The translations under genes were made by a program, and so were the position numbers. Below the pieces are notes generated by a model that saw only the letters and a list, made by a program, of their open reading frames with translations, did no database searches and was not told the origin of the DNA. From Anolis carolinensis (lineage: Eukaryota), in the NCBI RefSeq assembly GCF_035594765.1, contig NC_085841.1, positions 75,501,574 through 75,565,573 on the forward strand: a DNA stretch of 64,000 bases, in the 5' to 3' direction. Shown here piece by piece: positions 8,096-61,387 of this stretch; position 1 is the first letter of the stretch; the number at the start of each line of letters is the position of its first letter.

Positions 8096-11000
8096 CTAAA
8101 TAGTTTTGGACCAAAAGCAGGCAACAGCAACCGCATTGTCTGTAGCTTTAAACAACTCCTCCTCCGTACATGAGGCAGGGCATTGTGGGCAAGCATACAT
8201 ATGCTGAGTTGTTTGTTCAGCTCCACAGTCACACAAGGTGGAGGATTCCTCCAGGTAGTGCCACCTTGCCAAGTTGTCTTTTGATCTGCCCACTCCACTT
8301 CTGAGTCTGTTCAGGGACTTCCAAGTTGCCCATTCTTGGTTTGCCCCTGGAGGAAGACCCTCTTGGGGGGCCATCCAGTTAGAATTGCCAGGTTTAGCTG
8401 CCCAGAGGGACACCCTTGCTGCTGCTGGAGGAACATCAAGAGGAGTGGTGGTTCTCATGAAGCCCTTCCTTGATGTGAGTCTGGTGGGAGGAGGGTGATA
8501 GCCATGCAGTGGGTGGCTTTCACAATGTTCGACCTTTTTTCTCTCACCGTTAGCAGTGACTTCCCGTCGCACGTCAGGAGGGGCAATGCCAGCTAACTTG
8601 TAGAGTTTATCAACAGGTGTAGGTTTAAGGCATCCCATGATGATTCTGCATGTTTCATTCAGTGCTATGTCCACCTGCTTTGCATGGGCAGACTTGTGCC
8701 AAACAGGACAGGCATACTCTGCAGTTGAGAAAGACAGGGCCAGGGCTGATGTTCTTATTACTTGTGGGTCTGCTCCCCATGCGCTGCCAGTCAGTTTCCG
8801 CAGGATGTTATTGCGTGCAGCTACTTTGTGCTTGGTGTTCATGCAGTGTTTCCTATATGTTAGTGTTCGGTCTAAGGTGACACCAAGGTATTTAGGATGG
8901 AAACAGTGTTCGAGCTCTTGGCCTTCCCAAGTAACTTTCAGTTTCCTGTTGGCTTCGCGGTTACGTAGGTGGAAAGCACACACTTGTGTCTTGGAAGGAT
9001 TAGGCTTCAGGTGGTTCTCTTTGTAGTAGCTGGAGAGATCTTTCAAGGCATTAGTGAGTTGCTTTTCAACTGTTTCAAAATCTTTTGCTTGTGTTGTAAG
9101 GCCAAGGTCATCAGCATATATAAAGCTCTTTGTGAGTGGAGGTTGTGGCTGATCGTTCGTGAAGATATTAAATAAGGTCGGTGCAAGAACGCTGCCTTGG
9201 GGTAAACCATTTTTTGCCTCCTCCATCTGCTTTTCTGGCCCTGAAACTCCACATAGAAGCTGCGGTTTTCTAAGAGGGTCTGGACAGTTTTTGTGAAGTC
9301 AAAGTCCCGGGTGATATGGTAGACTTTATGCAGCATTTTTCTATGTTGCACCGTGTCATAGGCTGCCGTAAGGTCCACAAAGACTGTTCCTGTAATGCAG
9401 CCTTTCTCATAGCCTTCCTCGATATGTTCAGTCAGATGAAGAATTTGACCTGTACAGTTTTTCCCTGGTCTGAAACCTGCTTGTTGTTCAATAAGCTTGG
9501 GTTCGATAACAGGTCCTAGTCGATTTAATAGCATCCTCTCATAGACTTTATATAGATGACATAAGAGGGAGATTGGTCGATAGTTCCTGGCATTAGAGGC
9601 ATCTTCACCAGGTTTTAAGATGGCAATTATCTTAGTTTTCCTCCATGCTCTGGGAATCTGTTTGTGTGCCAAGCATTGATTGTAGAATTTCAAAAGCCAG
9701 TTTTCAGCTTTGGGGCCCAAGTGTTTGATTTGCTCCATCATCAGGTCATCTAGGCCAGGTGCTTTACCAGTCTTGCATCGCTTGATGGCTTCTCTGAGTT
9801 CTTTCAGGTTTAGAGGAGAAGACAACTGGTGGGTTTCAAGTTCTGGCACCCTGTTGATTTTCATCTTTATTCTGCTGCAGTTGGTTTTCCCATTCTGAAT
9901 TAGCTGGTGAGCTATCTGATCTGGTGTCACGTTCGCGTGTCCAGGGTTGACCAGAGGGTCACTATCCAGGCGTCTCAGCAATTGCCAGGCTTTTCGGCTA
10001 CTCTTGGACATGTCCAGGTTCTCAAGCAGCTCTATCCAACTGTCTTTCTTAGCATTAGCTAAGGCTGTAGATAGTTTTTGGCCTGCTGCTATAGTCCCAT
10101 CACTGTATGGGTTCTCTTGAAATAATCTGAGATATTCTTGTAGCTGATTTAGTGATTCTTCGTTTAGGCCTGGTAGGTAGCTTGTGCGACAACCTCTAGG
10201 GATTGAGAGCCTTGAGGATCTTTTCACAGCTTCTACAAACAGGTCATAATTTTCTATAGAAGGTTCTATATCAGAAATAGCAGCTTCCAAGGTCTCTGTA
10301 AACTTTGTCCAGTTAGCTTTATTGAAGTTATATCTTCTGCGGAATGGGACACTTTTCGGTCTTACAGCTGCATATGCTACGCAGCATATTGGTCTGTGTT
10401 GTGTGTTAGGTATCGGGTTTAATACCCTTTTGGTGCATTGGTGGCTTATGCTTTCCTTTACAAAAAATCAGATCAGGGTTATAACCACGCTTCCATCGGC
10501 CACTATTAAATGATGGTGGTAATTTACTGTCATGAAGGAGGCTCATTCTACTATTGTCGGCCCACGTTAGAACTGCTTCGCCATTTCTATCATCTTTGTC
10601 ATAGCCCCAGACACAGCTGTGGCTATTGAAATCTCCCACAACAAAATGGGCTTCATGATTGTGGCAACTGGTTGGGGGTGTAAAATAGAAATCAGCCCCA
10701 GGTGGTTTATAGAGTGATGATACGGTGCAACTATCAAGTTCCACAGATAAGATTTCAATGTTGTTCACTTCTGTGAGGGAAGTTGCAGAGATTGCTACAC
10801 CAGATCGTACAAAAATGGCACTGCCATATTGTCTGTGAGGTCGTTCCACTGACAGTTACATTCCAAGAATTTTTGGTCTTCTCATTGTGATGTCTCTGTG
10901 TGTTTCCTGTATACATAGGATGTCACACGAGATGTCCTCAGACATTTTGGCTAATAGTTCTTCCTTAGCAAGTGACAAACCTTCTATATTAATAGACATA

Positions 11001-21610: not shown

Positions 21611-22270
21611 CCCATCTCCCCGAAGGGACTCGGGGCGGCTTACATGGGGCCTTGCCCGATAAAACAATCAAATATCAAAATACAGCAATAAAACAGTTAT
21701 CCAATAAAAACATCAATTACAGTAAAAACAATCGTTAAAATCAACATAAAACATACAATATTAACACTGGAGACTAATTCATAGAACCCAGGCAAAGTGC
21801 AACATGTGCCGAAATGGGCCGAAATGGGGAAGGTAATTTCACAGTTGAAATGGACAAAGTGCAATATAGCATTGGCAACACCTCAAGAATGGGGCTATTA
21901 TAAAATGGGCAGATAGATCAGCCCGACACCAAATTAAGTATCAAAGGCCTTTTGAAAGAGCCAGGTTTTTAAGCTCCTACGGAAGGAGAGGAGGGTAGGG
22001 ACCTGTCTGATCTCTCTAGGGAGCGAGTTCCAAAGCCGGGGGGCCACGACGGAGAAGGCCCTCTCTCTTGTCCCCACCAACCGTGACTGCGAGGGTGGTG
22101 GGAGCGAGAGAAGGGCCTCCCTTGACGAGCGAAGAGAATGTGCGGGTTCGTAGGGGGAGATGCGGTCTCTAAGGTAGGTGGGTCCCAAACCATTTAGGGC
22201 TTTGTAGGTGATAACCTGCACCTTGAATTGGGCCCGGAAAGTAAATGGCAGCCAGTGAAGCTCCTTAAAC
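21611..22270 (-). mobile_element. 5'-truncated L2 LINE (ORF2 C-terminus and 3' UTR)
   Basis: ITYKALNGLGPTYLRDRI...RERAFSVVAPRLWNSLP...FRRSLKTWLF; 3' end GCCCCATGTAAGCCGCCCCGAGTCCC shared with 61288-61330. Confidence 0.85.
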
Positions 22271-22727
22271 CTACCTTGAATGGGAGCTTAGCGCAGCCTA
22301 ACATGGCTGCCGCTCCTCGGCCAATCAGAAGCTTCCACGATGGACGCAAAGATGGGGGCTAGGGTCCTCTGCGTCCATGTGGAAGATTGCCATAAAAGCC
22401 CGTTGTGTAGCCCGGGTGAGCCATTCTGGGCTGGGTTTTGTGCAGAGAGGGTGGTGGTCTGTAAACTGAGAGCAAGCAAGCCTCGTGTCTTGAGGGAGAG
22501 AGAGGGTGAAGGGGTTTGGAGGGGTTTGGAGAAGGGGTTAGGGTTTTGTTGCGGGTTCCTTCTCTTGTGAGTGTGTTAATTTTGGGTAGCGCTCAGCTAT
22601 TTAGAGCTGTGAATTCCAGGGTTATTTTTTCCATATTATTTTTAAAAAATCTAGCTTTCAATTTCGTTAAGAATAGTTCTTGCTGGATCATAGCATATCT
22701 TTGCAGAATCAGTAGTCTATTTCATTA

Positions 22728-23652
22728 AGAAGGCATTGCCTTTCAGGCTTGTGGGATCACATAGCCAGAGACACCATTGATTTTTCCAGTGTTCTTGCTT
22801 ACAAATATAGCAAGGGAATTTATAGTTTTCAAAGTATCTGTGCACTCCTTGCCAGGGCATTGGCCAGCTTGCTCACAGGTACAATACCAAAGGAAGGCAA
22901 GGCATTGCCTTTGTGGCTTGTGGGATCACATAGCAAGACACACCATTGATTTCCAGTGTCCTTCTTGCTTAAAAATATAACAAGGGAATTTCTAGTTTTC
23001 AAAGTTTCTTTGCACACCTTGCCAGAGCATTGGCCAGGTTGGTCACTGGTACATTAACAAAGGAAGACATTGAGTTTGGGGCTTGTGGGAGCACATAGCA
23101 AGACATAGCATTGCATTCCAGTGTCTTTTTTTCCTAAAAAAATTACAAAGGGAATCTCTAGTTTCCAAAGTTCCTTTGCACACAGTGCCTGAGCATTGCC
23201 TGGCTTGGCCACAGGTACATTTCCTAATGAAGGCATTGGGTTTGGGGCTTCTTGGAGCGCATAGCAAGACATAGCATTGATTTCTACTGTCCTTTTTCCT
23301 TAAAAATATAACAAAGGGAATTTCTAGTTTTCAAAGTTACTTTGCACACCATGCTGGAGCATTGCCTGGCTTGGTCACAGGTACATTTCCAAAGGAAGGC
23401 ATTGAGTTTGGGGCTTGTGGGAGCACATAGCAAGACATAGCATTGAATTCCAGTGTCCTTTGTCCTAAACAATATTACAAAGGGAATCTCTAGTTTCCAA
23501 AGTTCCTTTGCACACAGTGCTTGAGCATTGCCTGGCTTGGTCACAGGTACATTTCTTAATGAAGGCTTTGGGTTTGGGGCTTCTGGGAGCGCATAGCAAG
23601 ACATACCATTGATTTCCAGTGTCCTTTTTCCTTAAAAATATTACAAAGGGAA
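22728..23652. repeat. ~166-bp tandem repeat, about 5.5 copies, with A/B dimer structure
   Basis: Unit AAGGCATTG..GGCTTGTGGGA.CACATAGCAAGACA..CATTG..TCCAGTGTC...TTTGCACAC...TTGG.CACAGGTACA repeats near 22728, 22898, 23059, 23226, 23392, 23558. Confidence 0.9.
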
Positions 23653-24963: not shown

Positions 24964-26453
24964 GTAGATTTGATTACATACATGTATTTTGTACTAATAA
25001 AAATGACTGAGGTGAGTACAGCCTGCAAAAACAGAATCAAAAAACACTGTGTGTGTCTCCTTTCTTTAAGAGAAATTACCCTGTTCAGCACTCTAGCCAG
25101 CTTTAAATATGAAGCTGGAGATACAGTTCAGGCTGGAGGGAGAAGAAACATGCAGGATATTTTTTTAAAGTGGCTTCCCATTTCTTTTTAACTGTTGTTT
25201 CAGTAATATATACATCCTTCAGGCTGTTCAAATTGTTTGGAAGGGTAGGTTAAAATATTACCCTTCCTTTTAATTTTAAACCTGTACATTTCTGTATGTC
25301 TAAGAAAACAGCAGAGTATGTAAATACCACTACATAATATTTAAATTGCTATATTTCCCATCACTGAATCATGCATTGAACTATGTGAGAGGGCTTTAAC
25401 ACAGCCATTTAATCCAGAGTATAAAGAGGGTTTTAAAGACCTGTTACTTTCTGGAGTCTCCACCTGGCTCAATTACCCCAGAACAGTCCTCCCAGGGCAC
25501 CCGCATTAATCTAGAATAATATAGAGCAGCGGGATATCTGCCTGAAGTTTTCCACCATTTTCCCCTCACATAGTCACAGAGATTGTGCAGAGTATGGAAT
25601 TCCTGGGGTTTTTAAAATGCTATTGTGTGCTGGTGCCATTCACACCAGCGCAATGTACCGAAATCTCATGAAGTCTTGCATTTTCTGCATACTAGGGGAA
25701 TATAATGGGCTCTATTACAATGCATCTTTCAACAGAACCTGGATTTTTCACACTTTTTAAAACACAGGTTTTTCCCATTTAGTGTGGTTCCAGTCAGATT
25801 ATGGGGTTGTGTCATTTGACTATCCCCCACACCATTTATATTCCACTTCCAAATGGATTATAAGACCTATGTAGATATGACCAGAGTTAACAATGAGAAG
25901 GAATTATTATATCCACGGTGTGGTAATATACATCAGCAGATGACATTTTGTTTAGTGTCACTGGATATTTGTAGGTACATGGAAATTAGATGGATAGATT
26001 TTAACTGTATGTTGATCAGTTCTGGGAACATAGATAACTCAAATCTGGGTAGGAAACATATAGCTTTTCTGATGTTGTAGGATTGGAACTCCCATTAATA
26101 GCAGTGTATGTGTGGTGTGTGTGCAACTGTTTGTTTATATATGTGCCTTCAAAACACCTGACAGGTTATGGTGATCCCATGTTTTTTGAGGGCTTTCTTA
26201 AGTAAAGAATATTCAAGTGTAGTTTTGACAGTTCTTCTATCTGAAATATATTCTAGAAGCTTGTATTTATTAGTGACCTCCCATGCAAATACTAATCAGA
26301 GCTGTTTCTGCTTATTTTCCAAGAGCAGACAGGATATGGTGCCTTTAGGGTATTTATGCAAGCAGCATAGAAAATGGCAAAGCATGATGGCATTCCTAAC
26401 TTGGCTTAAAATATCTTTAAATGAGTTTCTAATAAAACACATAAATCTTTTCA

Positions 26454-27724
26454 TGTCAAGAGTCAGACGCCAGTTAACAAACAAAACAGTTTATTCTGAA
26501 GATAAGCCAAAAATAACACAAAAACAAGCCATGCTATTTTCCCATGCTGGCATTCAATAAAAACTAAGGACGCTTCAATTCAGCTTAGAAGAAACAAATA
26601 GAGTTGACTGCAAGATAACATGCAAAATAAACGAAGGCTTGCAACTTTCCAAAAGCTGCAGAGTATAACAAAGTGCAAAAGCTTCTTTTAGCTCCAAACC
26701 GTTTCTGAAAACAGACAGCCGGCTCTGCAGAGTTAAAGGGACAGTTCCCAAAAGAAAAACAGCAAACTGGCTTAAAAACAAACAAACTAGAAGAGCAGTA
26801 AACTGCTTCCACAGTGCAGATAAAGCCGAAGCTTCAAAGGGATTATGAATAGCCGTCGTCAGGAGAATCCAAGGTCAGGTCGAGAGGCAGCAGCAAATTC
26901 CAGAAGTCAGAAGCCAGGAGTAGTCGTCAGTCAGGGAGCGTAGACAGAAGCCAGGTCAAATTCAATCCAAAGTCTGAAGAGGGTGCAGTCATCCAAACCA
27001 GATCCACGATAAGACACAGCGAGAGCCAAGCCAGATGGTATCAGCAGCTAGAAATAGTAATCAGAATGCAGTCCAAGGAAACCCACACAGTTCCATCCCT
27101 CTGCTGCAGAGCAGTCCCAGATAACTTACATCCGAATCACAGTCCAAGTCCAGTCTTCACGGAAACACAGAGATCCCAATGGCGCCTCAGCAACACCTTG
27201 CCACACGCAAAGTGCAATGGCCAAACATTCCCATTTTATTCCCCTTCCTCCTGGGTGACCAAACACTCACACCCAAACACCAGGTGTCCCAAATCTACTC
27301 AGAGTCCGAACTCCACACAGCTAGAGCTCGTGGATCTGGAGTACCTAGCAATTCATCGGAGTCCCAATCATCCTGCCCACACTTAGCCCCGTGAACACTT
27401 AAAGAACCATCCTCCCTTCTCCAAGCATCCCAAGTGGGATCAGCTCCTGCAGAAACCCCAGGTTCAGTAGTATCCATAGGCCCCAAATCCCCAGACATCT
27501 CTGGTGGCTGTGCCCATTCAGTGCCCACTTCCCCAGCCACCACCTGTTCCTCAGCATCCATTTCCCCAAACTCCCCATCTGAATCTTCCTCAGAAGATCC
27601 CCCATATAGCTCTCTAAGTCGCTTCCTGCACAACTCCTCCAGTGAACCCTCATCACGAGGGTTTTTTCTTCCTCTTCGGATCCCATCACCATCAACCATA
27701 ATCCCCGAAGGCGCAGTCACAACA
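26454..27724 (-). mobile_element. Solo LTR (Gypsy-like), 1,271 bp
   Basis: - strand TGTTGTGAC...TTGACA; 5-bp TSD tttca at 26449-26453 and 27725-27729; AATAAA near 3' end; homologous to 31388..32702. Confidence 0.8.
27295..27720 (-). CDS. LTR-encoded acidic protein segment (141 aa), function unknown
   Basis: Homologous to 31388..31898 with synonymous-biased substitutions; basic RRGRKNPR...RKRLRE motif followed by D/E/S-rich tract. Confidence 0.55.
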   Translation of the reverse strand: MTAPSGIMVDGDGIRRGRKNPRDEGSLEELCRKRLRELYGGSSEEDSDGEFGEMDAEEQVVAGEVGTEWAQPPEMSGDLGPMDTTEPGVSAGADPTWDAWRREDGSLSVHGAKCGQDDWDSDELLGTPDPRALAVWSSDSE

Positions 27725-28015
27725 TTTCATATGCTGTTCATGCATGGAAGAGCAAAGTCCCCCCCCCTCCTCCGGCGCTGGATAACTTTATTAAAGTTCA
27801 TATTTAGTGTTCTTGGGTAGAAATGTTCATCTGCACAAAAAGAAAGATGGTTTCACTAAAAAAGATTGTTTGATAATTTTGCACTATCATAATCTTTTTC
27901 ACAAAAGGCACAACATCTTCCAAATGTTTGTGACCATTCTTTCAACAGTTTGCCTCATTGTGTTAAAGCATTATTTCTTATCACAGTCAATCACAGTCAA
28001 GAAAATTTGTAAGTA

Positions 28016-28360
28016 CAGTAGAGTCTCGCTTATCCAACATAAACAGGCCGGCAGAACATTGGATAAGCGAAAATGTTGGATAATAAAGAGGGATTAAGGA
28101 ATTAGCCTATTAAATGTCAAATTATGTTATGATTTTACAAATTAAGCACCAAAACATCATGTCTTACAACAAATCAACAGAAAAAGCAGTTCAATACATG
28201 GTAACGTTATGTAGTAATTATTATATTTATGAATTTAGCACCAAAACATCCCAATGTATTGAAAACATTGACTACAAAAACATTGACTACTAAAAGGCAG
28301 ACTGCATTGGATAATACAGAACACTGGATAAGTGAATGTTGGATAAGCGAGAGATTACTG
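28016..28360. mobile_element. Tc1/mariner-type MITE
   Basis: TA|CAGTAGAGTCTCGCTTATCCAAC ... GTTGGATAAGCGAGAGATTACTG|TA. Confidence 0.85.
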
Positions 28361-28454
28361 TATAAGCTATGTCTCCAGTTCCTAGCATATTCCAGTATAT
28401 ACCTCTAATATGGAATGAGTGATTGATTAATGCCATAATTTAATAATTTTTTAG

Positions 28455-28772
28455 GAATTACAAGTGGAGTGTGCTGACGGACAGGCATTGCTTAATGCAG
28501 TACTTCATATTAGGGAGCAAGTAATCCCATGGGGTGTGCCCCAGTTGGAAGACAGAATACTAGAGTCTGTACGTCAAGACTGGACAGTCTATCAACATAA
28601 GCTTTCTGAAGTCAGAACACAATTAAACACTACCCTAAGCAAAGTGAGGCTCATGGAAAACAAATTTCTGAAGGTGGATGAATGGCTTCAAACTCTGGAG
28701 GAGAAAGTTAACATCAGAACTGGCCGACAATCTGACAGAGCCACAAAGGAAATGCAGTTGCAACAAATGAAG
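28455..28772 (+). CDS. SYNE1: SYNE1 exon w17 (318 nt, 0-0)
   Basis: tttttag|GAATTA...ATGAAG|gtgata; ELQVECADGQALLNAVLH...QLQQMK. Confidence 0.92.
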
Positions 28773-29153
28773 GTGATAAAGTTATATAATGATTATTTAT
28801 AATGAATTGGTGTAAATGGATTTAAAATTCTTCTGAATGATCTGTCAGCCAGCTAGCCAACCAACTTATTTTAGATGGGTAGGAACCAATCTCATTCTAT
28901 AAACAAACATCTTTCTGCAAAATGTTTTTATGTCCTCTCCTGAGAAATATCGATTTTCTTTTTAAAAGTTTCTTCATTCTTCCATGTCTCTTTTTGTTAA
29001 ATAAAAAGAATAACATTCTCTGATCAAAACTGCATGGTTTATAGTATGTATTTTATATAATGAGAAACCTGTTTCCAATTTTCTCTTTTTTATTTTAAAA
29101 TCCTAAAAGCCACATTTGTCATTTTGTCTGAAAATACAATTTCTTTCCTTTAG

Positions 29154-29309
29154 AAATGGCATGAAGAAATAACAGTCTATAAAGATGAAGTTGAAGAAGT
29201 GGGACTATTAGCCCAGCAAATTCTGGAAGAAAGTAATACTTGTAGTGCGACTGGAAGACAAGCTACCCACCTTGCATCTCGATACCAAACCCTTATTCTT
29301 CATGTATTA
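29154..29309 (+). CDS. SYNE1: SYNE1 exon w18 (156 nt, 0-0)
   Basis: cctttag|AAATGG...GTATTA|gtgagt; KWHEEITVYKDEVEEVGLLAQQILEE. Confidence 0.92.
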
Positions 29310-29472
29310 GTGAGTTCTGAGTGAATATCCCATAATCCATCGTTTTTGTGCCATGGACATACTCTGGCCTGTCATTTATATCATGTGAATTCTAACTTTG
29401 AGATAACTTAATTTCAGCATCGGACCATGGGCAGTTTGCTTCAACTTGCAGTTTCTTCACTGAATTTCCAAC

Positions 29473-30339
29473 CAGGGCCGGTTGTTACTAGGCGGCCGCG
29501 GACGCGGCCGCCTCGGGCGCTGGCTGCTAGGGGCGCCATTCGGGCCTGACTTCCTGGTCGCGGCCGGCGATCGCCCGGGCGGTCGCCGGCCGCGACCAGG
29601 AAGTCAGGCCCGAATGCCCTAGCTGTGCTGTGCGCGTGCGCACAGCACAGCTAGGCCATTTTGCCCTTAGTAACAAACTAAGGGCAAAAATGGCTTCTCT
29701 GGCTGTGCGCATGCGCACAGCCAGAGAAGCCATTTTTGCCCTTAGTTTGTTACTAAGGGCAAAATGGCCTAGGTGTGCTGTGCGCACGCGCACAGCACAC
29801 CTAGGCCATTCGGGCCTGACTTCCTGGTCGCGGCCGGCGACCGCCCGGGCGATCGCCGGCCGCGACCAGGAAGTCAGGCCCGAATGGGCTATCTGCGCTG
29901 TGCCCGTGCGCACAGCGCAGATAGCCCATTCGGGCCTGACTTCCTGGTCGCGGCCGGCGATCGCCCGGGCGGTCGCCGGCCGCGACCAGGAAGTCAGGCC
30001 CGAATGGCCTAGGTGTGCTGTGCGCGTGCGCACAGCGCACCTAGGCCATTTTGCCCTTAGTAACAAACTAAGGGCAAAAATGGCTTATCTGGCTGTGCGC
30101 ATGCGCACAGCCAGATAAGCCATTTTTGCCCTTAGTTTGTTACTAAGGGCAAAATGGCCACGCTGGGCGGGGGCGGGGCCAACTGTGGCCCCGCCCCCCC
30201 TCACTAATCGCCCTGGCCCCGCCTCCCACGCAGCGTGGGAGGCGGGGCCAGGGCACGCTGGGCGGGGCCAGGGCGCGGGTGGCGGGGGCGCTTTTCAGCA
30301 CCCCCGCTTCCCATTAAAAAATATCTCCGGCCGGCCCTG
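29473..30339. mobile_element. hAT MITE, 867 bp, CpG-rich, built from nested palindromes
   Basis: TIR CAGGGCCGG/CCGGCCCTG; perfect 8-bp TSD tttccaac at 29465-29472 and 30340-30347. Confidence 0.9.
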
Positions 30340-30603
30340 TTTCCAACTAAGCTCTCCACTGGTCACATAACTGAAGAGAATGTCTATATTAAAAAATATT
30401 GGAAGAACCCAGGATTTTATTTGCATAGCATTTTGCAGATGTACACTAAATACTTCAACATTGCTAACCCCCCAAACCAAGATCCTTGATACAGTAGTCA
30501 GTACCATTGCATGGTGTTTTTGCGGAGCTTTATAAATATGCATAAGCAGATCAGTAAGACAGATGTTTATGTGCATGTGTGGTATGTGAAGATCCTCAGT
30601 AAC

Positions 30604-30607
<4 letters not shown>

Positions 30608-30684
<77 letters not shown>

Positions 30685-30686
30685 TA
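30608..30686. repeat. Compound (TA)n(CA)n microsatellite
   Basis: Direct reading. Confidence 0.95.
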
Positions 30687-31387
30687 CTATAGACGTACAC
30701 ATGTTTCTGGGGATCATTGATCGTAGGGTGGGTAATTTCGCCAACTATCTGTGTTTCTGTTCATGGGGTCATAATGGCACATGTTCCAATTCTTTTTATT
30801 TTATTTTTTTGCAATGCTTGCATTTTCATTGTTCTTAGAACGTTTTTAGAGTTCAAGCCCCAGAACTTCCCAGCTCTCTGAATTGCCTCCACAAATGTTA
30901 ATACTTTCCACATTCCCTAAGATACATGGAGGCGTTTTTGCTATCTCCATGTACATATGGGGTTTGAAGATTGGACTGTTTTAGGCCCATATGGAGATCT
31001 TTATTTAACAAGAAAGAATAACTCAATTTCCAGTTTATGTCTATGCATGGGTAAATTAACATATTCCTGTAAAAATAACAGAGTATGTTGAGGCCCTGGG
31101 GACTTAGTCCTGTCCCTGCTCTGAGGTCTTACAGCTTTCGGGCCCAGCTCTTCTTGGCATGTCACCAGAATTGAGACAGTAGCTTTCACAGTGTTCTAAA
31201 TGTACAAGGTATTCAGAAGATATGTCTGTTCAGGGTTGGAGAGGCATATGATGTGTTGTGGATCAGGCCCATTTAAACAACCAACTGGACTCCCAACTCA
31301 CCATCCCTTTTCTTGCATATGAGGTGTGAAGAAAGCTTATATTATCCAGAGAAACAGAACAACATGCTTTACTCTAGGCACTGATAT

Positions 31388-31898
31388 TGAGAATGAGTCT
31401 TCTGAGGCTGTGAGTGATAATGGAGGGATCAGGAGAGGAAGGAAGAACCCTCGCGAGGAGGGCTCGCTGGAAGATTTACACAGGAAGAGAATCAGGGAGA
31501 TTAATGGGGAGTCTTCCGAGGAGGATTCATGTGGGGACTTGGGAGGGGATCTTGAGCTGGAAATGGATGCTGAGGAACCAGTGGTGACAGAGGAAGTTGG
31601 CATAGATTGGGCACGGGCTCCGGAGGATCTTGGGGAGGAATCTGGGTCCATGGATGCTGTAGATGCTGGAGAGGCTTGGGTATCTTCAGAAGCAGATCCC
31701 ACATGGTCTGCCTGGAGGAATGAGGGTAGTTCCACAGGTGTGGACAGAGTTGGGTTTGGGCAGGATGATGTTGATTCTGATGAGGAGTTTGGGACGCCTG
31801 ATCCTAGGGCGTTGGCTGTTTGGAGCTCAGATTCTGTTGAGAAACTTTGGACATCTGACCCTAGGGCGTTGGAAGTTTGGATGCCCAAGGAAACCTAA
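31388..31898 (+). CDS. LTR-encoded acidic protein segment (~170 aa inside the LTR), function unknown
   Basis: LTR part of ORF 31326..31898; aligns with 27295..27720 (GIRRGRKNPR.EGSLE, SSEEDS, EMDAEE, ADPTW.AWR, GTPDPRALAVWSSDS). Confidence 0.55.
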
Positions 31899-32702
31899 AT
31901 AAATTGGGGATGTTTGGCCACTATTCTTTGCGTGTAGCAAGGTGTTGCTGGGCGCCATTGGGTTTCCTGTACGTGATTCTGAAGACTGGCTTGGGACTTT
32001 GCAACAGATCTGCTGTTTGCCTTTGTTGCCTTGGCTTTTTGTGCCATCCCTTGACGTGGACCTTCCTGTGACGACTTCACCCTTTGGACCTTGGACTGAA
32101 TCTCGACTTGGCTTATCTCTTCACTCCCAAACTCGGCTTGGCATCGTTCTAATATCCGTGACTGTCTACCGTAGCTGACTGCTGGCTTCATTTCTGACCC
32201 TGACGCTGTTCCCTTATCCCGACTTCGGACCGGCTTGACTTCGCTACAACGCTACGCTCCTTTGGCTCCTGGCTTGGCTTCCGACTCTGCAGCGGCTTGC
32301 CGCTAAATCATCAGCGTTTTCCTGTTTTGTTTGTTTGTGCTGCTTTTGGCAAAGAGCTTTTAACCTGGTTTGGGTTTTTTCCTCAGTTTAGAATCGCTGC
32401 TGTACTCCTGGGTTTTGGGGAAAGTTTTGGGGCTTTGCAGTGATTTACCTTTGTTTGTTTTGCCATTTTAAGCCCATTTTGTGTCTTTGGGCTGAGTTCA
32501 AGTACTTTATGTTAAATCCGGATTATATCTCTGATTAATCCGGATTATATGCCAGTTCATGTTTTTGGTGTTTTTTCTGTTTTGACTGCTTAATAACACT
32601 GAAGGTTAAGTGTTTTAAGCCTCTGACAATTTACTGAGTTATTTTTGAGTTGTTACTTAAATAAACTATATTTTGCTCTCAGTTGGCATCTGACCTTTGA
32701 CA
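31388..32702 (+). mobile_element. Solo LTR (same family as 26454..27724), ~1,315 bp
   Basis: TGAGAATG...CTTTGACA; candidate 5-bp TSD gatat at 31383-31387 and 32703-32707; AATAAA at ~32660; 5' boundary uncertain by ~3 nt. Confidence 0.75.
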
Positions 32703-33470
32703 GATATAGTTTATTTAAAGAAATGTTTTTATTAAGTTCCAACCAAAAAGCATACATCATCAAAAGGGACAAAGAAAAAGGGTACACTTAAAGCAGGCAA
32801 ACATTGCATAATACAATTAAATAATAATAATAAAAGACATTCCTTCAGTGTCTTGTCTAGACTGCCTTCCTTCCCTTTGAAGTAGAAGCTATTCCTTAAT
32901 CATCTTGCACTCCATTTAGTGAAAAGAAAATGTAACTACTTAATGTTTATTTTTTGTTCACAGAGACTACTATCACTTCCTTATTTCCTCTAATGTTGAA
33001 TTCTTTAAGATTTTTACAATCTTTTTTATATAATTACTAGATATTCTCACAAATTTCCTGTTATATTTATTGGTAGAAATTTTCTACTCTTCCACTTGTA
33101 AGACATATTCCTTTAAACATTTCTCTACTTTCTCCCATTCTTTCAACACCTTGTTTAGAGACTGCCCTTCATTATCCTAGATTATTTTTCCATTTTGATA
33201 TGAGGGTGATCTCACATCTGTCACCCATTATCTCTAGGGTTGATAGGCTCAGTTTATGACACTGAGCAGGTAAGTGATTGAAGTAGAATAAAAATGCTTG
33301 TAATTTTGTTTCTTAATGGGAATAAGTAATCTAGTAACAATAAAAAGTAACTGCATTTCCCTATCCCTGTTTTATTTAAAAGAATATTATTTTGTAGCCA
33401 CTAATACATTTTTAGGAATTAAGAAATGAGTGAATAGCAAACCTTACTCCTATTTGAAATTTGCTTGCAG

Positions 33471-40099: not shown

Positions 40100-40513
40100 G
40101 TAAAAAACAATCAACTGGGAAATATTTGATCCAAATGATGTATGCACCAAAATATATCTATATGAATTCCGAAATATGTTCATAATTAAACATGCTAATC
40201 ACTGAAATAGATTCTAGAGTGTGAGCTGTCAAAAAGATCCTTGGGTAATGCTATGATGAAGTCTCCATTAATCCTCTGTTAACATCATTGACATTAACCT
40301 CTCCCTTGCAAGAACAAAAAAAATGTAAACAAGCACAATCCTGGCAACAGTTTTCTGTTTAGCTGGAGTAGAAGATTTAAGAAAAGTCAGTATTGAGCAA
40401 GGGATTGGTATTGCCCTGAACTGTTTGTAACATCCATCTAAATAATTTCAAATTTTAAACACATCACAATGTTTCTGCAGTGATTTTTTTTTTGGTGGCA
40501 TTTGGCAACCTTT

Positions 40514-40857
40514 GGAGACATAATAGCCATGTACAAATATGTGAGGGGAAGTCATAGGGAGAAGGGAGCAAGCTTGTTTGCTGCTGCTCTGGAGACTAGG
40601 ACACAGAACAATGGCTTCAAACTACAGGAAAGGAGATTCTGCCTGAACATCAGGAAGAACTTCCTCACTGTGAGAGCTGTTCGACACTGGAACTCTCTCC
40701 CCGGACAGTGGTGGAGGCTCCTTCTTTGGAGGCTTTTAAACAGAGGCTGGATGGCCATCTGTCGGGGGTGCTTTGAATGCGATTTCCTGCTTCTTGCAGG
40801 GGGTTGGACTGGATGGCCCATGAGGTCTTTTCCAACTCTACGATTCTATGATTCTAT
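40514..40857 (+). mobile_element. CR1 LINE 3' fragment
   Basis: YKYVRG...RKNFLTVRAVRHWNSLP; (ATTCTATG)n tail; 7-bp TSD aaccttt at 40507-40513 and 40858-40864. Confidence 0.9.
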
Positions 40858-40990
40858 AACCTTTCATAATATAACTGGAGCTTTTAAAATTTTTTGGAAG
40901 AGTTCAACATGGAATAGATGGAGAGTAAGGAAATCTAACTGCATCCTTGGTGTTATTCCTTAAAGTCTTCTAAATGTACACTTATACATA

Positions 40991-43140
40991 TCATCATCAT
41001 CATCATTTAATTACTTATTAATCTCCCTCCATCCAAGATGCTCTAGGCGATTTACAAGATAAAATTGTAAAGGATAAAAACATACATACAAATATTGAAA
41101 AAATTAACATAGATCAAAATCTCTAGTAAAGAGCCAGGTCTTGAGTGCTAGGGTAAAAGGCCCTAACTCACGCATGGCTCTCATATAGGGTGGCAAGGCA
41201 TTCCATAAGGCAGGGGCAGAAATAGAAAAACCTCTGCATCTGGTCCTTTCCAAGTGCACTTCTCTAGGACCCGATATATAAAGTACATTGCGTTGGGATG
41301 GTCATTGCAACCTCCGATGATGGGAGAAGGAGAGACGGTCCCTAAGGTACGATGTGCCCTGGCCGTAAAGAATTTTAAAGGTCAGAACTAGCATCTTATA
41401 TAGACCATGGTAATCAGTTGGAAGCCAATGCAAATGCTGCAGAACTGGTGTTATATGGCATTTCATGGGTGTTCTTGTGAGTAGCCTGGCTGCCGCATTC
41501 TGAACAATCCGGAGCTTTCGGGTCGTGGACATCGGAAGGCCAACATACAGGGCGTTGCAATAGTCCAGCCTAGATGTGACCGTGGCATGGATGACTGTTG
41601 CCAGAGCCTCATCAGATAGATAGGGTGCCAATTGCCTCGCTTGTCATAGATGGAAAAAGGCCTGTTTGCTGGCAGCAGCGACCTGAGCTTCCATTGTCAG
41701 CTGTGAATCCAAGATGACACCCAAGCTCTTAATGGTAGGCGAAGGAGATAGGGCAACACCATCGAAGGTGGGTAGCAAATGGGTCAAACCAATCGAGCAG
41801 CCATGCCAGAGAATCTCAGTCTTCGCCGGGTTCACCTTCAGTCTACTAGCACGTAGCCAGTTTGACAGAGCTTCCAGACATAAGAGGAAATTGTCTGGTA
41901 TTAACATTGCTCCAGGCTCCAAGTGCAGAAGGAGTTGGGTGTCGTCCGCATATTGATAGCAGTCTAGGCCGAAACTCCGAGCCAAACTAGCAAGGGGTCT
42001 AACGTAGATGTTGAAGAGAAGAGGGGAGAGAATTGCACCTTGGGGTACCCCACATAGGAAGGGAGATCTTTCAGAGACTTGATCCATATACTCCACACAT
42101 TGGCTCTGGTTTTGGAGAAATGAGTTGAACCAATTGAGGGCCTGACCGCGAACTCCGGACATGGCTAGACGGTGAATCATTAGATCGTAGTCAACGGTGT
42201 CAAACGCTGCGGTAAGGTCGAGAAGTACCAGTAGCGCTGATCCGCCGCTATCAGACTGGCAATGAAGTTCATCTGTAATGGCAACCAGGACTGTTTCCGT
42301 CCCTTAGCCAGGGTGGAAACCTGATTGGAAAGGGTCCAGGCCAGCTGTATCATCCAAAAATTGTTGCAATTGTCCCAGTACAGCCTGCTCTCTCATCTTA
42401 CCTAAGAATGGAAGGTTAGAGACAGGACGGTAATTAGCAAGGGTCATGGGATCCAAGCTAGGCTTCTTTAGCAAGGGACGAACCCTTGCCTCTTTTAGGT
42501 TGTCCGGGAAGACCCCCTGTTCAAGAGAGCCATTGATTATATTACTCAATGGATCAAGTAGATCTTCCAGGCAGCTCTTCACCAATCAAGAGGGACACGG
42601 ATCAAGGGAACAGGTGGTTGGTTTTGCAACAGCCAGGATTCTAGCAACATCTTCCCTGTCAAGCGGAGTAAATCAGTCAAAGATAGGCCCACTAAGCGGC
42701 CACAAAGTCTCAAGCTCTCTCAAGGTATCAACTGTAGGGGGCTGTTCCTGCCGAAGCACAGTGATTTTATCAGTGAAAAACTTCTGGAATGCCACTGCTG
42801 TAAGAGCCGTGGTTGCTGGGTTTTGGACTAAGGGAGCCAGACTGATCAAAGCACGAACTTTTTTGAATACTTGTGCTGGGCGCGATCTAGCAGAGGCTAT
42901 TAAGGAGGAATTGTAAGATTTTTTAGCGTCCTTAATGGCTGATTCGTAGGACCTGCAAAAAGTCTTGAAAGCGGACACCGACACCTCGTCGGGTTTCCAT
43001 CACCACCGGCATTCCAGCCGCTTTCATGCTTGCTTCATCGTCCATAGCTCATTAGTGTACCAGGGGGAGCGATTCTGGCGAGGGCGAAGGAGGCGTCTGG
43101 GAGCAATCTCATCCAAGGCAGCCAACAAACTGACATTCCA
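40991..43140 (-). mobile_element. 5'-truncated L2 LINE with disrupted RT (~2.15 kb)
   Basis: NYRPVSNLPFL, QSGF, GVPQGAILSPLLFNIY, QYADDTQL, SRLDYCNALY in broken frames; (GAT)n tail at 40991-41006. Confidence 0.9.
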
Positions 43141-48665: not shown

Positions 48666-48722
48666 TACCCTATCTTGATGTAAATTAATGTTTGCATTAT
48701 CCATTCTCCATTTCATCAACAG

Positions 48723-50883
48723 ATCAGATGCTGAAAGTACAGCTACTCATCTTGAAGCTTTGAGAAAGTTAGCACTGGCTCTGCAGGAGAGACGGTTTGC
48801 TCTTGAAGACTTAAAAGAACAGAAACAGAAAATGATAGAACATCTAAAACTGGATGACACAGAACTGGTAAAAGAGCAGTCAGGACATTTTGAACAGCGT
48901 TGGATTCAGCTGGAGGACCTTATTAAGAGGAAAATACAACTGTCTGTCACCACTTTAGAAGAGCTGAACATGGTGCAGTCTAAACTCCAGGAACTTATGG
49001 AATGGGCAGAAGAGCAGCAGCCTAACATCTCTGAAGCTCTGAAACACAGTCCACCACCTGAGCTGGCCCAAAATTTCCTTATGGACCATCTCACCATTTG
49101 CAGTGAAGTGGAAGCCAAGCAGGTTGTTTTGAAAGGACTCAAAAAGGATGCTGATAGAGTGATGACTAACTTAGGACTTAATGAAAGACAGATGCTCCAG
49201 AAATGTTTGTTGGAGGCCCAGAACCATGTGGACTGCCTTAGTGAACTTGTTGGGCAGAGGAGGAAACACTTAAATAAGACGTTATCTGAAAGAACTCAGT
49301 TCCTCCTGGCAGCCTTTCAGGCCATGAATCAAATCCAGCAACATGAGAGAAAATTAAAGTTCCATGATCATATCTGTTTGTTACCAGATGATGTGAGAAA
49401 GCAAATCAGGGCCTGTAAGAGTGCACAAGTGAGCCTTAAGGCCTACCAAAGTGAGATCTCTGGACTGTGGTCTCAAGGGCGGGATCTAATGAAGGACACA
49501 ACAGAACAAGAAAAGAGTGAGGTTTTGAATAAACTTCAAGAGCTGCAGAATACATATGATGCTATTTTAGAAAAATGTAACCAGCGATTAATAGAACTGG
49601 AGAAACATATGGTTTCTAGGAAATACTTCAAGGAAGATTTGGATAAAGCATGCCACTGGGTAAAGCAATCTGATATTGTTTCATTCCCAGAAATCAATTT
49701 AATGAATAGCAATTCTGAACTTTATTCCCAGCTAGCAAAGTATAATCACATTCTTGAGCAATTCCCTGAATATGAAAACCTCTTGCTGACATTGCAAAAA
49801 GATGGCCAGGAGATTTTACCATCGCTTAATGAAATGGACCGTTCCTATCTTGAGGAAAAACTTAGTGCCTTACCTCAACAATTCAGTGTAATAATTGCTC
49901 TGGCTAAAGAGAAATTCTGCAAAGTTCAAGAAGCTATTTTTGCCCGCAAAGAATATTCATCATTAATTGAATTGACAACAAAGGCGCTGTCTGAATTGGA
50001 AGATCAGCTTCTGAGCATGCATAAGGCTCCTTCTACTCTCTTAGCCGAAGAAGTGGTTTCACTCCAACAGGATTACAGAAATGTCTTAACTGAAGTTGTA
50101 AACCTTGGTACTGCAGTAGATGAATTAAACCAGAAGAAGGAAGCATTCCGAAGTACAGGGCAACCATGGTTACCAGAAGAGATGCTGCAACTTACCACTC
50201 TGTATCAGAAACTAAAAAGGCAAATAGAACAGAAAGTGAACCAGTTCGATGATATGATGGATGCCTATCAGGAGCATGAGAAAATGTGTAAGCAACTGGA
50301 AATACAGCTAAATTCTATAAAAGAGGATCAAACAAAATTGAATAAAAAGACACTGCCAGCAGAGGAAAAGTTGAAAATGTATCACTCTTTGGCTGGAAAT
50401 CTGCAAGATGCTGGAAACCTTTTGAAACGCCTTGCAGAACATCTTGAGACACTTTCTTCCCAACTTGACCCATGTGTTCATGAAGAAGCAAATAATCAGG
50501 TGCGAACCTGGCAAGACATGATGAAAACATTACATACTGCCATTGGTGATATTGTGATGGAGTGTGAAAACAGGCTGGTGCAAAGCATAGATTTTCAGAC
50601 AGAAATCTGTCGTTCACTTGAGTGGCTGAGGCACATTAAGGCAGAATTAAATGACCCCTTGAACATAGATTTAAAACTTAATGATATTCAAGAAGAAATC
50701 CGCAAAGTTCAGATCCAGCAGGAAGAAGTCCAGTCCAGCCTGAGGATCATGAGAGCACTAAGTAATAAAGAAAAGGAGAAATACATGAAAGCCAAAGAGC
50801 TGATACCCACTGACTTAGAAAACAGTCTTGCTGAGCTCTCTGAATTAGACGAGGAAGTCCAAGAAGCAGTATTCAAGAGACAG
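48723..50883 (+). CDS. SYNE1: SYNE1 giant exon w28 (2,161 nt, 2-0)
   Basis: tcaacag|ATCAGATGCT...AGACAG|gtcagt; lies inside the 751-aa ORF 48688..50943; about 720 aa of spectrin repeats. Confidence 0.94.
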
Positions 50884-51885
50884 GTCAGTACAACTTGTAT
50901 TCCTAATTATGTTGAACCTAAAATTGAATTGAAATTAAAATAGTACATGCTGTATAGAAGCTGTGGCCAAACTGCTTCGGTCTGATGTAGATATGGCAGT
51001 TGATGTAACTTTAAACAGAGCTAAATAATGTAAAAGTTTACACATTTGTAACCTGAGTACACACTAGATCTATACCTAGTGAACAAATAACTTAAAGTTG
51101 TGTTACAGTACATTATTTACAGACTAAGAAAAGTCAATGTTATGCAAATAATAATACTCCCCTTTCCTTAAAGAATATAAGTGCATCACATGGATTGTCC
51201 ATGTGACAAACCCAAACACAATTTTCTGAAAAGTACTTATCCCATGTTTTCTGAGTTACCTGGCTCCTGGGAACTTGTACCCTTTGCTTTGCTGTATTAT
51301 TATTTACTGTTCAAATAAGTTCAAAAACTTCCACAAAGATACGTAAGATTATCAACATGGGGGTTCTGATAAATATGCTATAGATCATACCACAAAATGG
51401 TTTTAAATTTCTTAGAGAAGTAATTTGATTTCATTTTTGTAAGAAGTAATGTTTCTCCCTTAAAATATTCCTTAGTAGTAATGCAATTCTGATTTGCAAC
51501 GTCTGGGCCTCTGTTACAATAGAACATGACACTGTGACCATGGATATCCATGGGATCTTTCAGTATCTCAGCTAGCCTTGCCTGTAGAAATTTCATGTGT
51601 AAATCAGTAGCACATTTTAAAAAAATTTCCATTTACATACAACACCTATTGAATTCAGTGAGATGAACATTTAAGCACCCATTTGGATAAGCTGCTAGCA
51701 CAGTTTTCTGATTCAACGTACTGGAACTGAAGAAAGTTTCCACTTCATTCAGTATTCACAGCAGATATCAAATCCGCTGAGTTAGTAGAACTTCCCTAGT
51801 TTTGTATGCCGTAGTGTTTTGAGTGCAGGTAATGTGTATGTATTTGTGATTCTATACATCATTTTCATTATCTGTTTGCTTTTAG

Positions 51886-60319: not shown

Positions 60320-60715
60320 ATGTAGACATGGCTTCAGTCATTAATCAAAATGGAAGCTGCAGTCAGTAATTCAAAAAAGACTAGGATTTAGATGGCCAGC
60401 TCTGAAGGAACTAGAAAAGGTCTTGAAGTGTCAAGTTATATTATTGAATTTTAAAGTTATTATTGTCCATACCATCTCACTTCCAATTTCTATGTATGGT
60501 TGTGAATTCTGAATAGTAAATACATTTTATAGAAATGAAATAAAATCTTTTGAAATGTGGCGCTAAAGATTAGCTCCTGAGACTGTCATCTTTCAATCAC
60601 ATCATGAGAAGATACGACTCACTAGAAAAGAAACGAATGCTTGACAAGGTAGAGGCAGTGGGGCAAGGAGAGAGAGCATTCTAGATGGATAGACTGAGTC
60701 TGCGAGACCTGCATT
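60320..60715 (+). mobile_element. Decayed BovB/RTE LINE fragment (continues ~61390-61460 after an L2 insertion)
   Basis: GAAGCTGCAGTCAG...AAAAAGACTAGGA...GAAGGAACTAGAAAAGG...ATGTATGGTTGTGAA...TTTGAAATGTGG resembles the RTE/BovB RT C-terminal region. Confidence 0.55.
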
Positions 60716-60726
60716 GGGCTTTGTGA

Positions 60727-61387
60727 TTGCCTTTCCCCGTACAAACCTGCACAATCTCTTCGTTCGTCAGGGGAGGCCCTCCTCTCACTCCCACCTCCAT
60801 CACAAGCGCGGTTGGTGGGGACGAGAGAGAGAGGGCCTTCTCCGCGGTGTCCCCCCGGCTCTGGAACTTGCTCCCCAGGGAAATCGGGCAAGCCCCCACA
60901 CTGGTAGCATTCAGAAAGAGCTTGAAAACTTGGCTCTTCACTCAGGCCTTTGGATAAAGATTGCTCATCCTCATAACAATCCTGTATCTGTGACCATTCT
61001 TGTACCTGTTGGCACTTTTTACCTTTGTCAACTTGATATAGACACCGGGTCTATTCCCATCCCAATTTGCACTTCCAAGAATTTGCAGCACTTTATCAGT
61101 CACCTCGTATTTACAATATTTATATGGTGCACCTTACCCAGTCTACTTTTACAACCTCTCCATTTTAATCCATGTTTTTATTAGTTCTTGTCATTTGTTT
61201 TCATTGGCTAATGTTTAAATTTTTATAATTGTGCAGGTCTTTTGTCTATTGTTGTGTTTTATATTGCTATTGTTTTTATTTGGGCTTGGCCCCATGTAAG
61301 CCGCCCTGAGTCCCCTTTGAGGAGATAGAGGCGGGGTATAAAAATAAAGTTGTTGTTGTTGTTGTTGTTGTTATTATTATTATTATT
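60727..61387 (+). mobile_element. 5'-truncated L2 LINE with (GTT)n(ATT)n tail
   Basis: RERAFSAVSPRLWNLLPREIGQAPTLVAFRKSLKTWLF; same family as 21611..22270. Confidence 0.85.

What the first reader, a model, noticed from the sequence alone, without database searches (positions are those of the whole stretch)
26454..32702. Two diverged solo LTRs both encode the same acidic protein segment under apparent purifying selection
Seen: LTRs 26454..27724 (-) and 31388..32702 (+) each have an ORF open from the LTR 5' end for ~140-170 codons. Over the 28 codons from GIRRGRKNPR to YG/NG, 10 differ synonymously (including first-position CGA/AGA Arg changes that are silent only in this frame) and 6 non-synonymously, 4 of them conservative (D/E, E/D, L/I, L/I). 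Indels preserve frame. The peptide has a bipartite-NLS-like basic head (RRGRK...RKRLR), CK2-type SSEEDS sites, a long acidic tract and conserved Trp motifs (W.AWR, DPRALAVW). It does not resemble gag, pol or env. No ATG is conserved at the start. Established: some retroelements have accessory ORFs running into U3 (HIV nef, MMTV sag, foamy bel/bet). Inference: the C-terminal part of an uncharacterised accessory protein, possibly a nuclear transactivator or anti-silencing factor, of a lizard LTR-retrotransposon family.
Basis: partly seen in the sequence, partly recalled or inferred. Interest (0 to 1): 0.8.

Follow-up and report, generated by a model that had tools for sequence, protein, structure and literature searches.

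The report
Retrotransposon integrase tail mimicking LEDGF partners
The acidic peptide coded in these lizard solo LTRs is the tail end of a Gypsy retrotransposon's integrase, which has no chromodomain. Sister families carry a short motif there that closely matches host proteins that dock on LEDGF, the factor HIV uses to find genes, so the tail likely steers integration; the two window families lack the key residues.

Summary
Both are solo LTRs with 5-bp target duplications, and the shared frame is under purifying selection (dN/dS 0.24-0.26; other sense frames about 1.2).

It is not a separate accessory gene. In full-length family-A copies the frame continues pol (protease-RT-RNaseH-integrase) through the polypurine tract into U3. 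The element is a self-priming Tf1/sushi-type Gypsy element in an anole genome, and its integrase lacks the chromodomain. For family B no internal region was found, so read-through is inferred.

The surprise is in sister families. Their LTR-coded tails carry a helix + acidic linker + FxGF motif: one copy in C, D and E, three in series in F. This is the signature of proteins that bind the LEDGF/HRP2 integrase-binding domain. The best PDB hit for two such tails is the LEDGF-bound JPO2 motif (E 1.6 and 0.15, weak alone), and C shares 11 of 22 residues with the lizard's own JPO2-like motif. Window families A and B lack FxGF.

Likely reading: a chromodomain was replaced by an LTR-coded host-mimic tether, as in plant CRM elements. 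Binding and gene-body targeting are untested.

The parts
26454..27724 (-). Solo LTR, family A, Tf1/sushi-type Gypsy element; intronic, antisense to the host spectrin-repeat (nesprin-like) gene
   Evidence: TG..CA and TSD TGAAA at 27725-27729 and 26449-26453; full-length relatives; host exons
27295..27723 (-). U3-coded integrase tail of family A (142 codons + stop); in full-length copies continuous with pol
27565..27642 (-). Position of the helix-acidic-FxGF motif of sister families; here helix and acidic linker remain, FxGF is absent
   Evidence: alignments A1 and A2; motif scan
27301..27342 (-). TPDPRALAVWSSDS block, conserved at protein level in A and B only; partner unknown
   Evidence: 14 of 14 residues identical, 10 synonymous changes
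27234..27240 (-). TATA-like AATAAAA about 30 nt upstream of the inferred transcription start
   Evidence: sequence; position relative to priming site
27198..27208 (-). 11-nt stretch complementary to the primer-binding site behind the 5' LTR (self-priming; marks the inferred U3/R border)
26490..26495 (-). Polyadenylation signal AATAAA of LTR A (inferred)
   Evidence: sequence; same position in full-length copies
31388..32702 (+). Solo LTR, family B; intronic, sense to the host gene
   Evidence: TSD GATAT at 31383-31387 and 32703-32707; relatives
31389..31898 (+). U3-coded tail of family B (169 codons + stop, stop inside the TATA-like TAAATAAA); fusion to pol inferred from homology
   Evidence: no B-type internal junction found
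31467..31541 (+). Eroded helix-acidic motif of family B (no FxGF)
31773..31881 (+). 57-bp tandem duplication that doubles the DPRALxVW motif in family B
31930..31940 (+). Counterpart of the self-priming site in LTR B (one mismatch to the family-A site)
   Evidence: sequence

Best explanation
The LTR frame is the C-terminal tail of the integrase of a chromodomain-less Tf1/sushi-type Gypsy retrotransposon (shown for family A, inferred for B), and it likely serves as the host-factor docking module in place of the chromodomain. Shown: pol has no stop before the polypurine tract and runs about 140 codons into U3 of the 3' LTR, so every LTR, solo ones included, carries the coding sequence although only full-length RNA can translate it as part of Pol. 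Shown: in sister families C, D, E and F the tail holds one to three helix + acidic linker + FxGF motifs. Inferred: these bind the TND (integrase-binding domain) of LEDGF/PSIP1 or HRP2/HDGFL2, probably tuned by CK2, and would tether the integration complex to H3K36me3 chromatin of transcribed genes. This is the pocket family that lentiviral integrases use, reached here by copying the host's own motif. Families A and B lack FxGF, keep the basic head, helix and acidic linker, and have a new selected DPRALAVW motif. They likely bind another partner, or a TND by the helix alone.
For: Read-through: 47 of 56 pattern matches share one PPT-LTR junction; of 30 loci fetched, 26 have it, 24 have the integrase SH3 end in the LTR frame and 23 have no stop in between. 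Domain order from Pfam: gag, PR, RT, RH, H2C2, rve, SH3; no Chromo in A, C, D; Chromo present (E 5e-9) in family X. Chromodomain-less families form one clade, bootstrap 100. Selection on the tail: dN/dS 0.24-0.50 between families where estimable. FxGF with varying codons in C, D, E, F. Best PDB hit for both the C tail (only hit) and the F tail (best of 3) is LEDGF IBD-JPO2 M1, entry 6emo. Ungapped 11 of 22 identity to the lizard's own JPO2-like motif. Tail predicted disordered except a helix at residues 24-37, exactly the motif helix. Host PSIP1 present, and a second locus of the same family, probably HDGFL2. Motif definition and FxGF need for LEDGF/HRP2 from PMC9987994. Precedent for an LTR-coded targeting tail in PMC3059260.
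Against: The two window families lack FxGF, so the LEDGF reading applies to their relatives, not to them. The PDB E-values (1.6, 0.15) are not significant alone, a profile of all tails found no PDB hit, and the A tail hit only an unrelated bacterial protein. No B-type internal region was found in four pattern searches or among the integrase hits fetched. No difference in target choice is shown: A (9 of 150) and chromodomain family X (1 of 150) both lie mostly on the six large chromosomes, which hold 85% of the bases. Named relatives of the tail were found only in Anolis carolinensis records. The A+E grouping has only 67% support in the final tree.
Confidence: 0.6

Rival explanations
1. The tail is part of integrase and does bind TND proteins, but for something other than target choice: nuclear retention or stabilisation of integrase, recruiting elongation factors or histone chaperones to the new insertion, or acting as a decoy.
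For: TNDs occur in TFIIS, ELOA, IWS1, PPP1R10 and others, and many motifs use the helix only (PMC9987994). Family A spread to many copies without FxGF. No positional signal was seen.
Against: It sits where the chromodomain sits in relatives, and FxGF is specific to LEDGF/HRP2 ligands in the review passage.
Confidence: 0.25
2. The tail is a generic acidic, NLS-bearing extension kept for charge, solubility or nuclear import, and the FxGF likeness is chance.
For: Low complexity (23-28% D/E); fast evolution (tail dN 0.22 against 0.047 for the integrase core, C vs D); chromodomain family X also reads 92 codons into its LTR without the motif.
Against: FxGF arises in about 1% of shuffles of a single tail. 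The helix+FxGF pattern (defined after seeing the data) arises in at most 2 of 20000, and three copies in F in 0 of 20000. Spacing matches the host motif without gaps.
Confidence: 0.08
3. One reading: a stand-alone accessory protein (transactivator or anti-silencing factor) made from a spliced or LTR-proximal RNA, or released from Pol by the protease.
For: C and D have an in-frame Met at LTR codon 2 and A at codon 9; one database protein starts at that Met (P0187). Cleavage cannot be excluded from sequence.
Against: In frame with pol in A, C, D, E, F. The Met is not shared by B or E. U3 lies upstream of the inferred start site, so LTR-driven RNA would not contain it.
Confidence: 0.07

Closest known systems
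Vertebrate Tf1/sushi chromoviruses (Ty3/Gypsy, Metaviridae)
   Same: gag + pol in the -1 frame, PR-RT-RH-IN order, no env, 5-bp TSD, 11-nt self-priming site; sister family X with chromodomain in the same genome
   Different: No chromodomain; 138-169 codons of U3 read as integrase tail
Plant centromeric retrotransposons, CRM group A (CR motif; PMC3059260)
   Same: [quoted passage not shown]
   Different: Animal host, dispersed on chromosome arms rather than centromeric, tail has TND-interacting motifs; homology to the CR motif not tested
Host TND-interacting motifs / LEDGF IBD-binding motifs (JPO2/CDCA7L, IWS1, KMT2A, MED1, JIL-1)
   Same: Helix, 8-residue acidic S/T-containing linker, FxGF, in a disordered region, repeated in series in family F
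   Different: Coded by a retrotransposon LTR; binding not measured; absent from families A and B
Lentiviral integrase-LEDGF tethering
   Same: Same host domain would be used for the same purpose (inferred)
   Different: Lentiviruses bind through folded integrase domains (recalled), not through a host-type linear motif
UniRef 'Gypsy retrotransposon integrase-like protein 1' entries of Anolis carolinensis (P0005-P0007)
   Same: Contain integrase fused to the C/D-type tail
   Different: Automatic names only; the Pfam lists shown cover no part of the tail
U3 accessory ORFs (HIV nef, MMTV sag, foamy bel/bet; recalled)
   Same: Protein coding overlaps U3
   Different: Those are separate genes; this frame is continuous with pol

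Membership tests
Tf1/sushi group of Ty3/Gypsy | gag then pol with PR-RT-RH-IN order, no env | tested here: met
   Pfam; ORF map (about 6.2-kb elements, internal region filled by gag and pol)
Tf1/sushi group of Ty3/Gypsy | Self-priming: PBS complementary to the LTR's R start instead of a tRNA | tested here: met
   11-nt complement in 3 of 3 elements tested; same PBS in 9 of 12 stretches; mechanism per PMC4600332 passages
Tf1/sushi group of Ty3/Gypsy | TG..CA LTRs with 5-bp TSD | tested here: met
   5 of 6 full-length copies with perfect TSD
Chromovirus in the strict sense | Chromodomain at integrase C-terminus | tested here: not met
   No Chromo hit in A, C, D; hit in X; none visible in E, F
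TND-interacting motif (LEDGF IBM), sister families C-F | Amphipathic helix with F/L/I/V | tested here: met
   Predicted helix 24-37, block pLDDT 80-82; a prediction, not a structure
TND-interacting motif (LEDGF IBM), sister families C-F | Acidic linker of 8-16 residues with S/T, then FxGF | tested here: met
   8 residues between helix end and FxGF; definition PMC9987994
TND-interacting motif (LEDGF IBM), window families A and B | FxGF | tested here: not met
   0 copies in either window tail
TND-interacting motif (LEDGF IBM) | Physical binding to a TND; CK2 phosphorylation | not testable with these tools
CRM group A | Pol extends into 3' LTR | tested here: met
CRM group A | Centromeric accumulation | tested here: not met
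   Hits dispersed along chromosomes
CRM group A | CR-motif homology | not tested
   No CR-motif sequence was fetched
Retroviral U3 accessory gene (nef/sag/bel type) | ORF separate from pol | tested here: not met
   Continuous with pol

The most novel reading that the evidence does not exclude
A vertebrate Gypsy lineage discarded its heterochromatin-reading chromodomain and evolved, inside its own LTR promoter, one to three copies of the host's LEDGF/HRP2-binding motif, so that it integrates into transcribed genes by the same host tether as HIV. The window's families then retargeted again through a new DPRALAVW motif. Co-active young families with chromodomain (X), with FxGF (C) and without either (A) make one lizard genome a natural experiment in switching integration targets.
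Probability: 0.4. Interest if true: 0.85.

Novelty: new variant of a known kind. Interest (0 to 1): 0.66.

Why it matters
How vertebrate LTR retrotransposons choose insertion sites is largely unknown, and LEDGF tethering is described for lentiviruses. A host-type LEDGF motif on a retrotransposon integrase would be an independent, simpler route to the same tether and a case of a selfish element mimicking a transcription-elongation motif. It also explains why thousands of solo LTRs here carry a selected reading frame, which turns up inside automatic gene models (P0008, P0172). The test is cheap: peptide binding, plus overlap of existing young insertions with gene annotation.

Tried and rejected
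Pfam scan of both window peptides: no family at E up to 10. Search for a family-B internal region: four patterns and the integrase search gave only solo B LTRs or E/G-type junctions. Relatives outside Anolis: two searches for longer proteins found only Anolis carolinensis records (4 and 7 hits; shorter proteins not searched). A profile search of 1.84 billion representatives returned 150 best hits, of which 2 match the tail, both C/D-like, one later named as Anolis; squamate transposon proteins are poorly represented, so this is weak evidence. Capture of the motif from the host CDCA7/CDCA7L-like genes: 23-39 of 66 bases identical, no sign of recent capture, ancient capture not excluded. Gene-body test through strand skew of flanks: dropped, because skew changes sign within the known gene body of this window. 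Chromosome-class comparison: uninformative. Literature: nine searches listed no paper whose title or abstract start describes this lineage or an FxGF motif in a retrotransposon. I saw listings only for most; subscription papers, Repbase/Dfam entries and supplements were not visible, and PMC6065015 and PMC8943916 are not held. Earlier scan findings: none.
Full report
1. Observation. Both LTRs are at the stated coordinates, with perfect 5-bp TSDs. Their first frames give acidic peptides with no Pfam match. Over 140 codons dN/dS is 0.24 and the bootstrap interval of pN/pS (0.27-0.53) excludes 1. The other sense frames behave neutrally. Both LTRs lie in introns of a + strand spectrin-repeat gene (the nesprin-1 name is inferred from Pfam Spectrin_SYNE1, below cut-off).

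2. Context. Both LTR types are abundant and mostly solo. Of 30 B loci none showed an internal region; 19 of 30 A loci had a perfect TSD. The frame reaches the terminal motif in 26 of 30 A and 21 of 30 B copies (the A set was selected by protein similarity, so it is biased). A PPT + LTR pattern gave 56 matches, 47 with one shared junction. Of the 30 fetched, 26 have that junction, 24 have the integrase SH3 end in the LTR frame, 23 have no stop in between and 16 run intact to the end of the tail. Full-length copies are about 6.2 kb with gag, a -1 pol of about 1,215 codons that ends inside the 3' LTR, and no env; 9 of 12 stretches had both LTRs. Pfam gives gag, PR, RT, RH, H2C2, rve and SH3 and no chromodomain. 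An 11-nt stretch behind the 5' LTR is complementary to LTR position about 510 (A) or 455 (C), some 30-35 nt after a TATA-like box. This is the self-priming arrangement of Tf1-like elements (PMC4600332, passages). The tail therefore fills about 80-90% of U3 (inferred border). LTR pairs are 98.9-99.5% identical in five A copies and 100% in one C copy. Named database matches are Anolis carolinensis.

3. Sister families. An integrase search and junction patterns found further chromodomain-less families C, D, E, F and G with the same junction. C, D, E and F read into the LTR in frame; the one G copy is truncated. C is very young, with many copies of a 1,214-codon pol. Family X has a chromodomain and also reads 92 codons into its LTR, so read-through predates chromodomain loss or is common in this group. 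In an integrase tree of 11 lizard copies and 9 chromodomain-bearing database proteins, the chromodomain-less families form one clade (bootstrap 100). A groups with E at 67 (94 in an earlier run with more outgroups); deeper order is unresolved. Family B has no surviving internal region in my searches, so its fusion to pol is inferred from the shared frame and selection.

4. The motif. Tails of C, D and E contain one motif and F three, e.g. RDIFAAPSDEESFEGF (C), KEIFEESTDEDSFEGF (E), RDILNAPRDDESFMGF (F). PMC9987994 (passages) defines TND-interacting motifs as an obligate helix, an acidic 8-16-residue linker with CK2 sites and an optional FxGF. It says all known LEDGF and HRP2 partners have FxGF and that IWS1 has three motifs in series. 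PMC6877644 (passages) reports the same mode for fly JIL-1. The C tail's only PDB hit and the F tail's best hit is the LEDGF IBD-JPO2 M1 fusion (E 1.6, 0.15). These are not significant alone, and a pooled profile found nothing. The lizard's own zf-4CXXC genes carry such motifs: C and F2 share 11 of 22 residues with the JPO2-like one without gaps, at 30 and 39 of 66 bases. Shuffles give FxGF in about 1% of single tails and the full pattern in at most 2 of 20000 (pattern defined after the fact). AlphaFold predicts the C tail disordered (mean pLDDT 58) except the motif helix. The window families lack FxGF. LTRs show a graded series: E (IFEESTDEDSFEGF), B-like (LLEESSDEDSFGDL), B (IDEESSEEDSCGDL), A (LYGGSSEEDSDGE). 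This suggests loss on the way to A and B, which instead share the selected DPRALAVW block.

5. Mechanism. Shown: the tail is coded in frame with integrase and is under protein-level selection; the chromodomain is absent; sister families carry the motif; the host has PSIP1 and a second IBD locus. Inferred: the tail stays on integrase, binds a TND and tethers integration to H3K36me3 gene bodies. [quoted passage not shown] Synonymous divergence in the tail (C vs D dS 0.85) is well below that of the integrase core (2.85). This points to DNA-level constraint on U3 or LTR exchange between families, so 0.25 probably overstates dN/dS. Against or open: no binding or expression data; no positional signal (A 9 of 150 and X 1 of 150 hits off the six large chromosomes); a skew-based gene-body test was not usable; no relatives outside Anolis found.

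6. Verdict. The feature is real and is a Pol/integrase C-terminus, not a new accessory gene. The fused proteins already sit in UniRef under automatic names. In nine literature searches I found no description of chromodomain replacement by an LTR-coded LEDGF-type motif (listings only for most papers; Repbase/Dfam and subscription papers not visible). New variant of a known kind; interest 0.66, carried by the sister families.

Noticed in passing
L100:4345-5022, L154-L165: Young chromodomain-bearing Gypsy family X also reads 92 codons into its LTR and ends in RRSLRIAAR; an older relative has RHSERL. This resembles nucleosome acidic-patch-binding RRSxRL motifs (recalled, untested).
   Followed up: partly
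L125, and G000:C6:36301568: Two family-C copies have gag and pol fused in one 1,480-codon frame instead of the -1 arrangement.
   Followed up: no
P0008, P0172, P0279, P0280: Automatic Anolis gene models have absorbed LTR tail sequence, including a glucosidase II alpha model; probably annotation artefacts, possibly exonisation.
   Followed up: no
window 29526-30254: GC-rich, largely palindromic array of 75- and 120-bp units with long inverted repeats, in the intron between the two LTRs.
   Followed up: no
window 22729-23652: Tandem array, 166-bp unit, 5.6 copies.
   Followed up: no
window 8096-10855 (-): Non-LTR retrotransposon with endonuclease and RT frames, nearly full length; L2/CR1-like fragments at 21934-22287, 40484-42303 and 60622-61184.
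   Followed up: no
window 48679-50943 (+): Very large exon (about 750 codons) of the spectrin-repeat host gene.
   Followed up: partly
L150 (G000:C2:143718346): Processed PSIP1 pseudogene with a stop in the IBD.
   Followed up: no
L175, L054, L102: F-type LTR fragments with FxGF motifs inserted upstream of the JPO2-like gene and inside family-A elements.
   Followed up: no
window 31388: Window LTR B starts 3 nt short of its relatives (TGAGAATG against TGTTGTGAATG), as does L024 (TGTGAATG).
   Followed up: no
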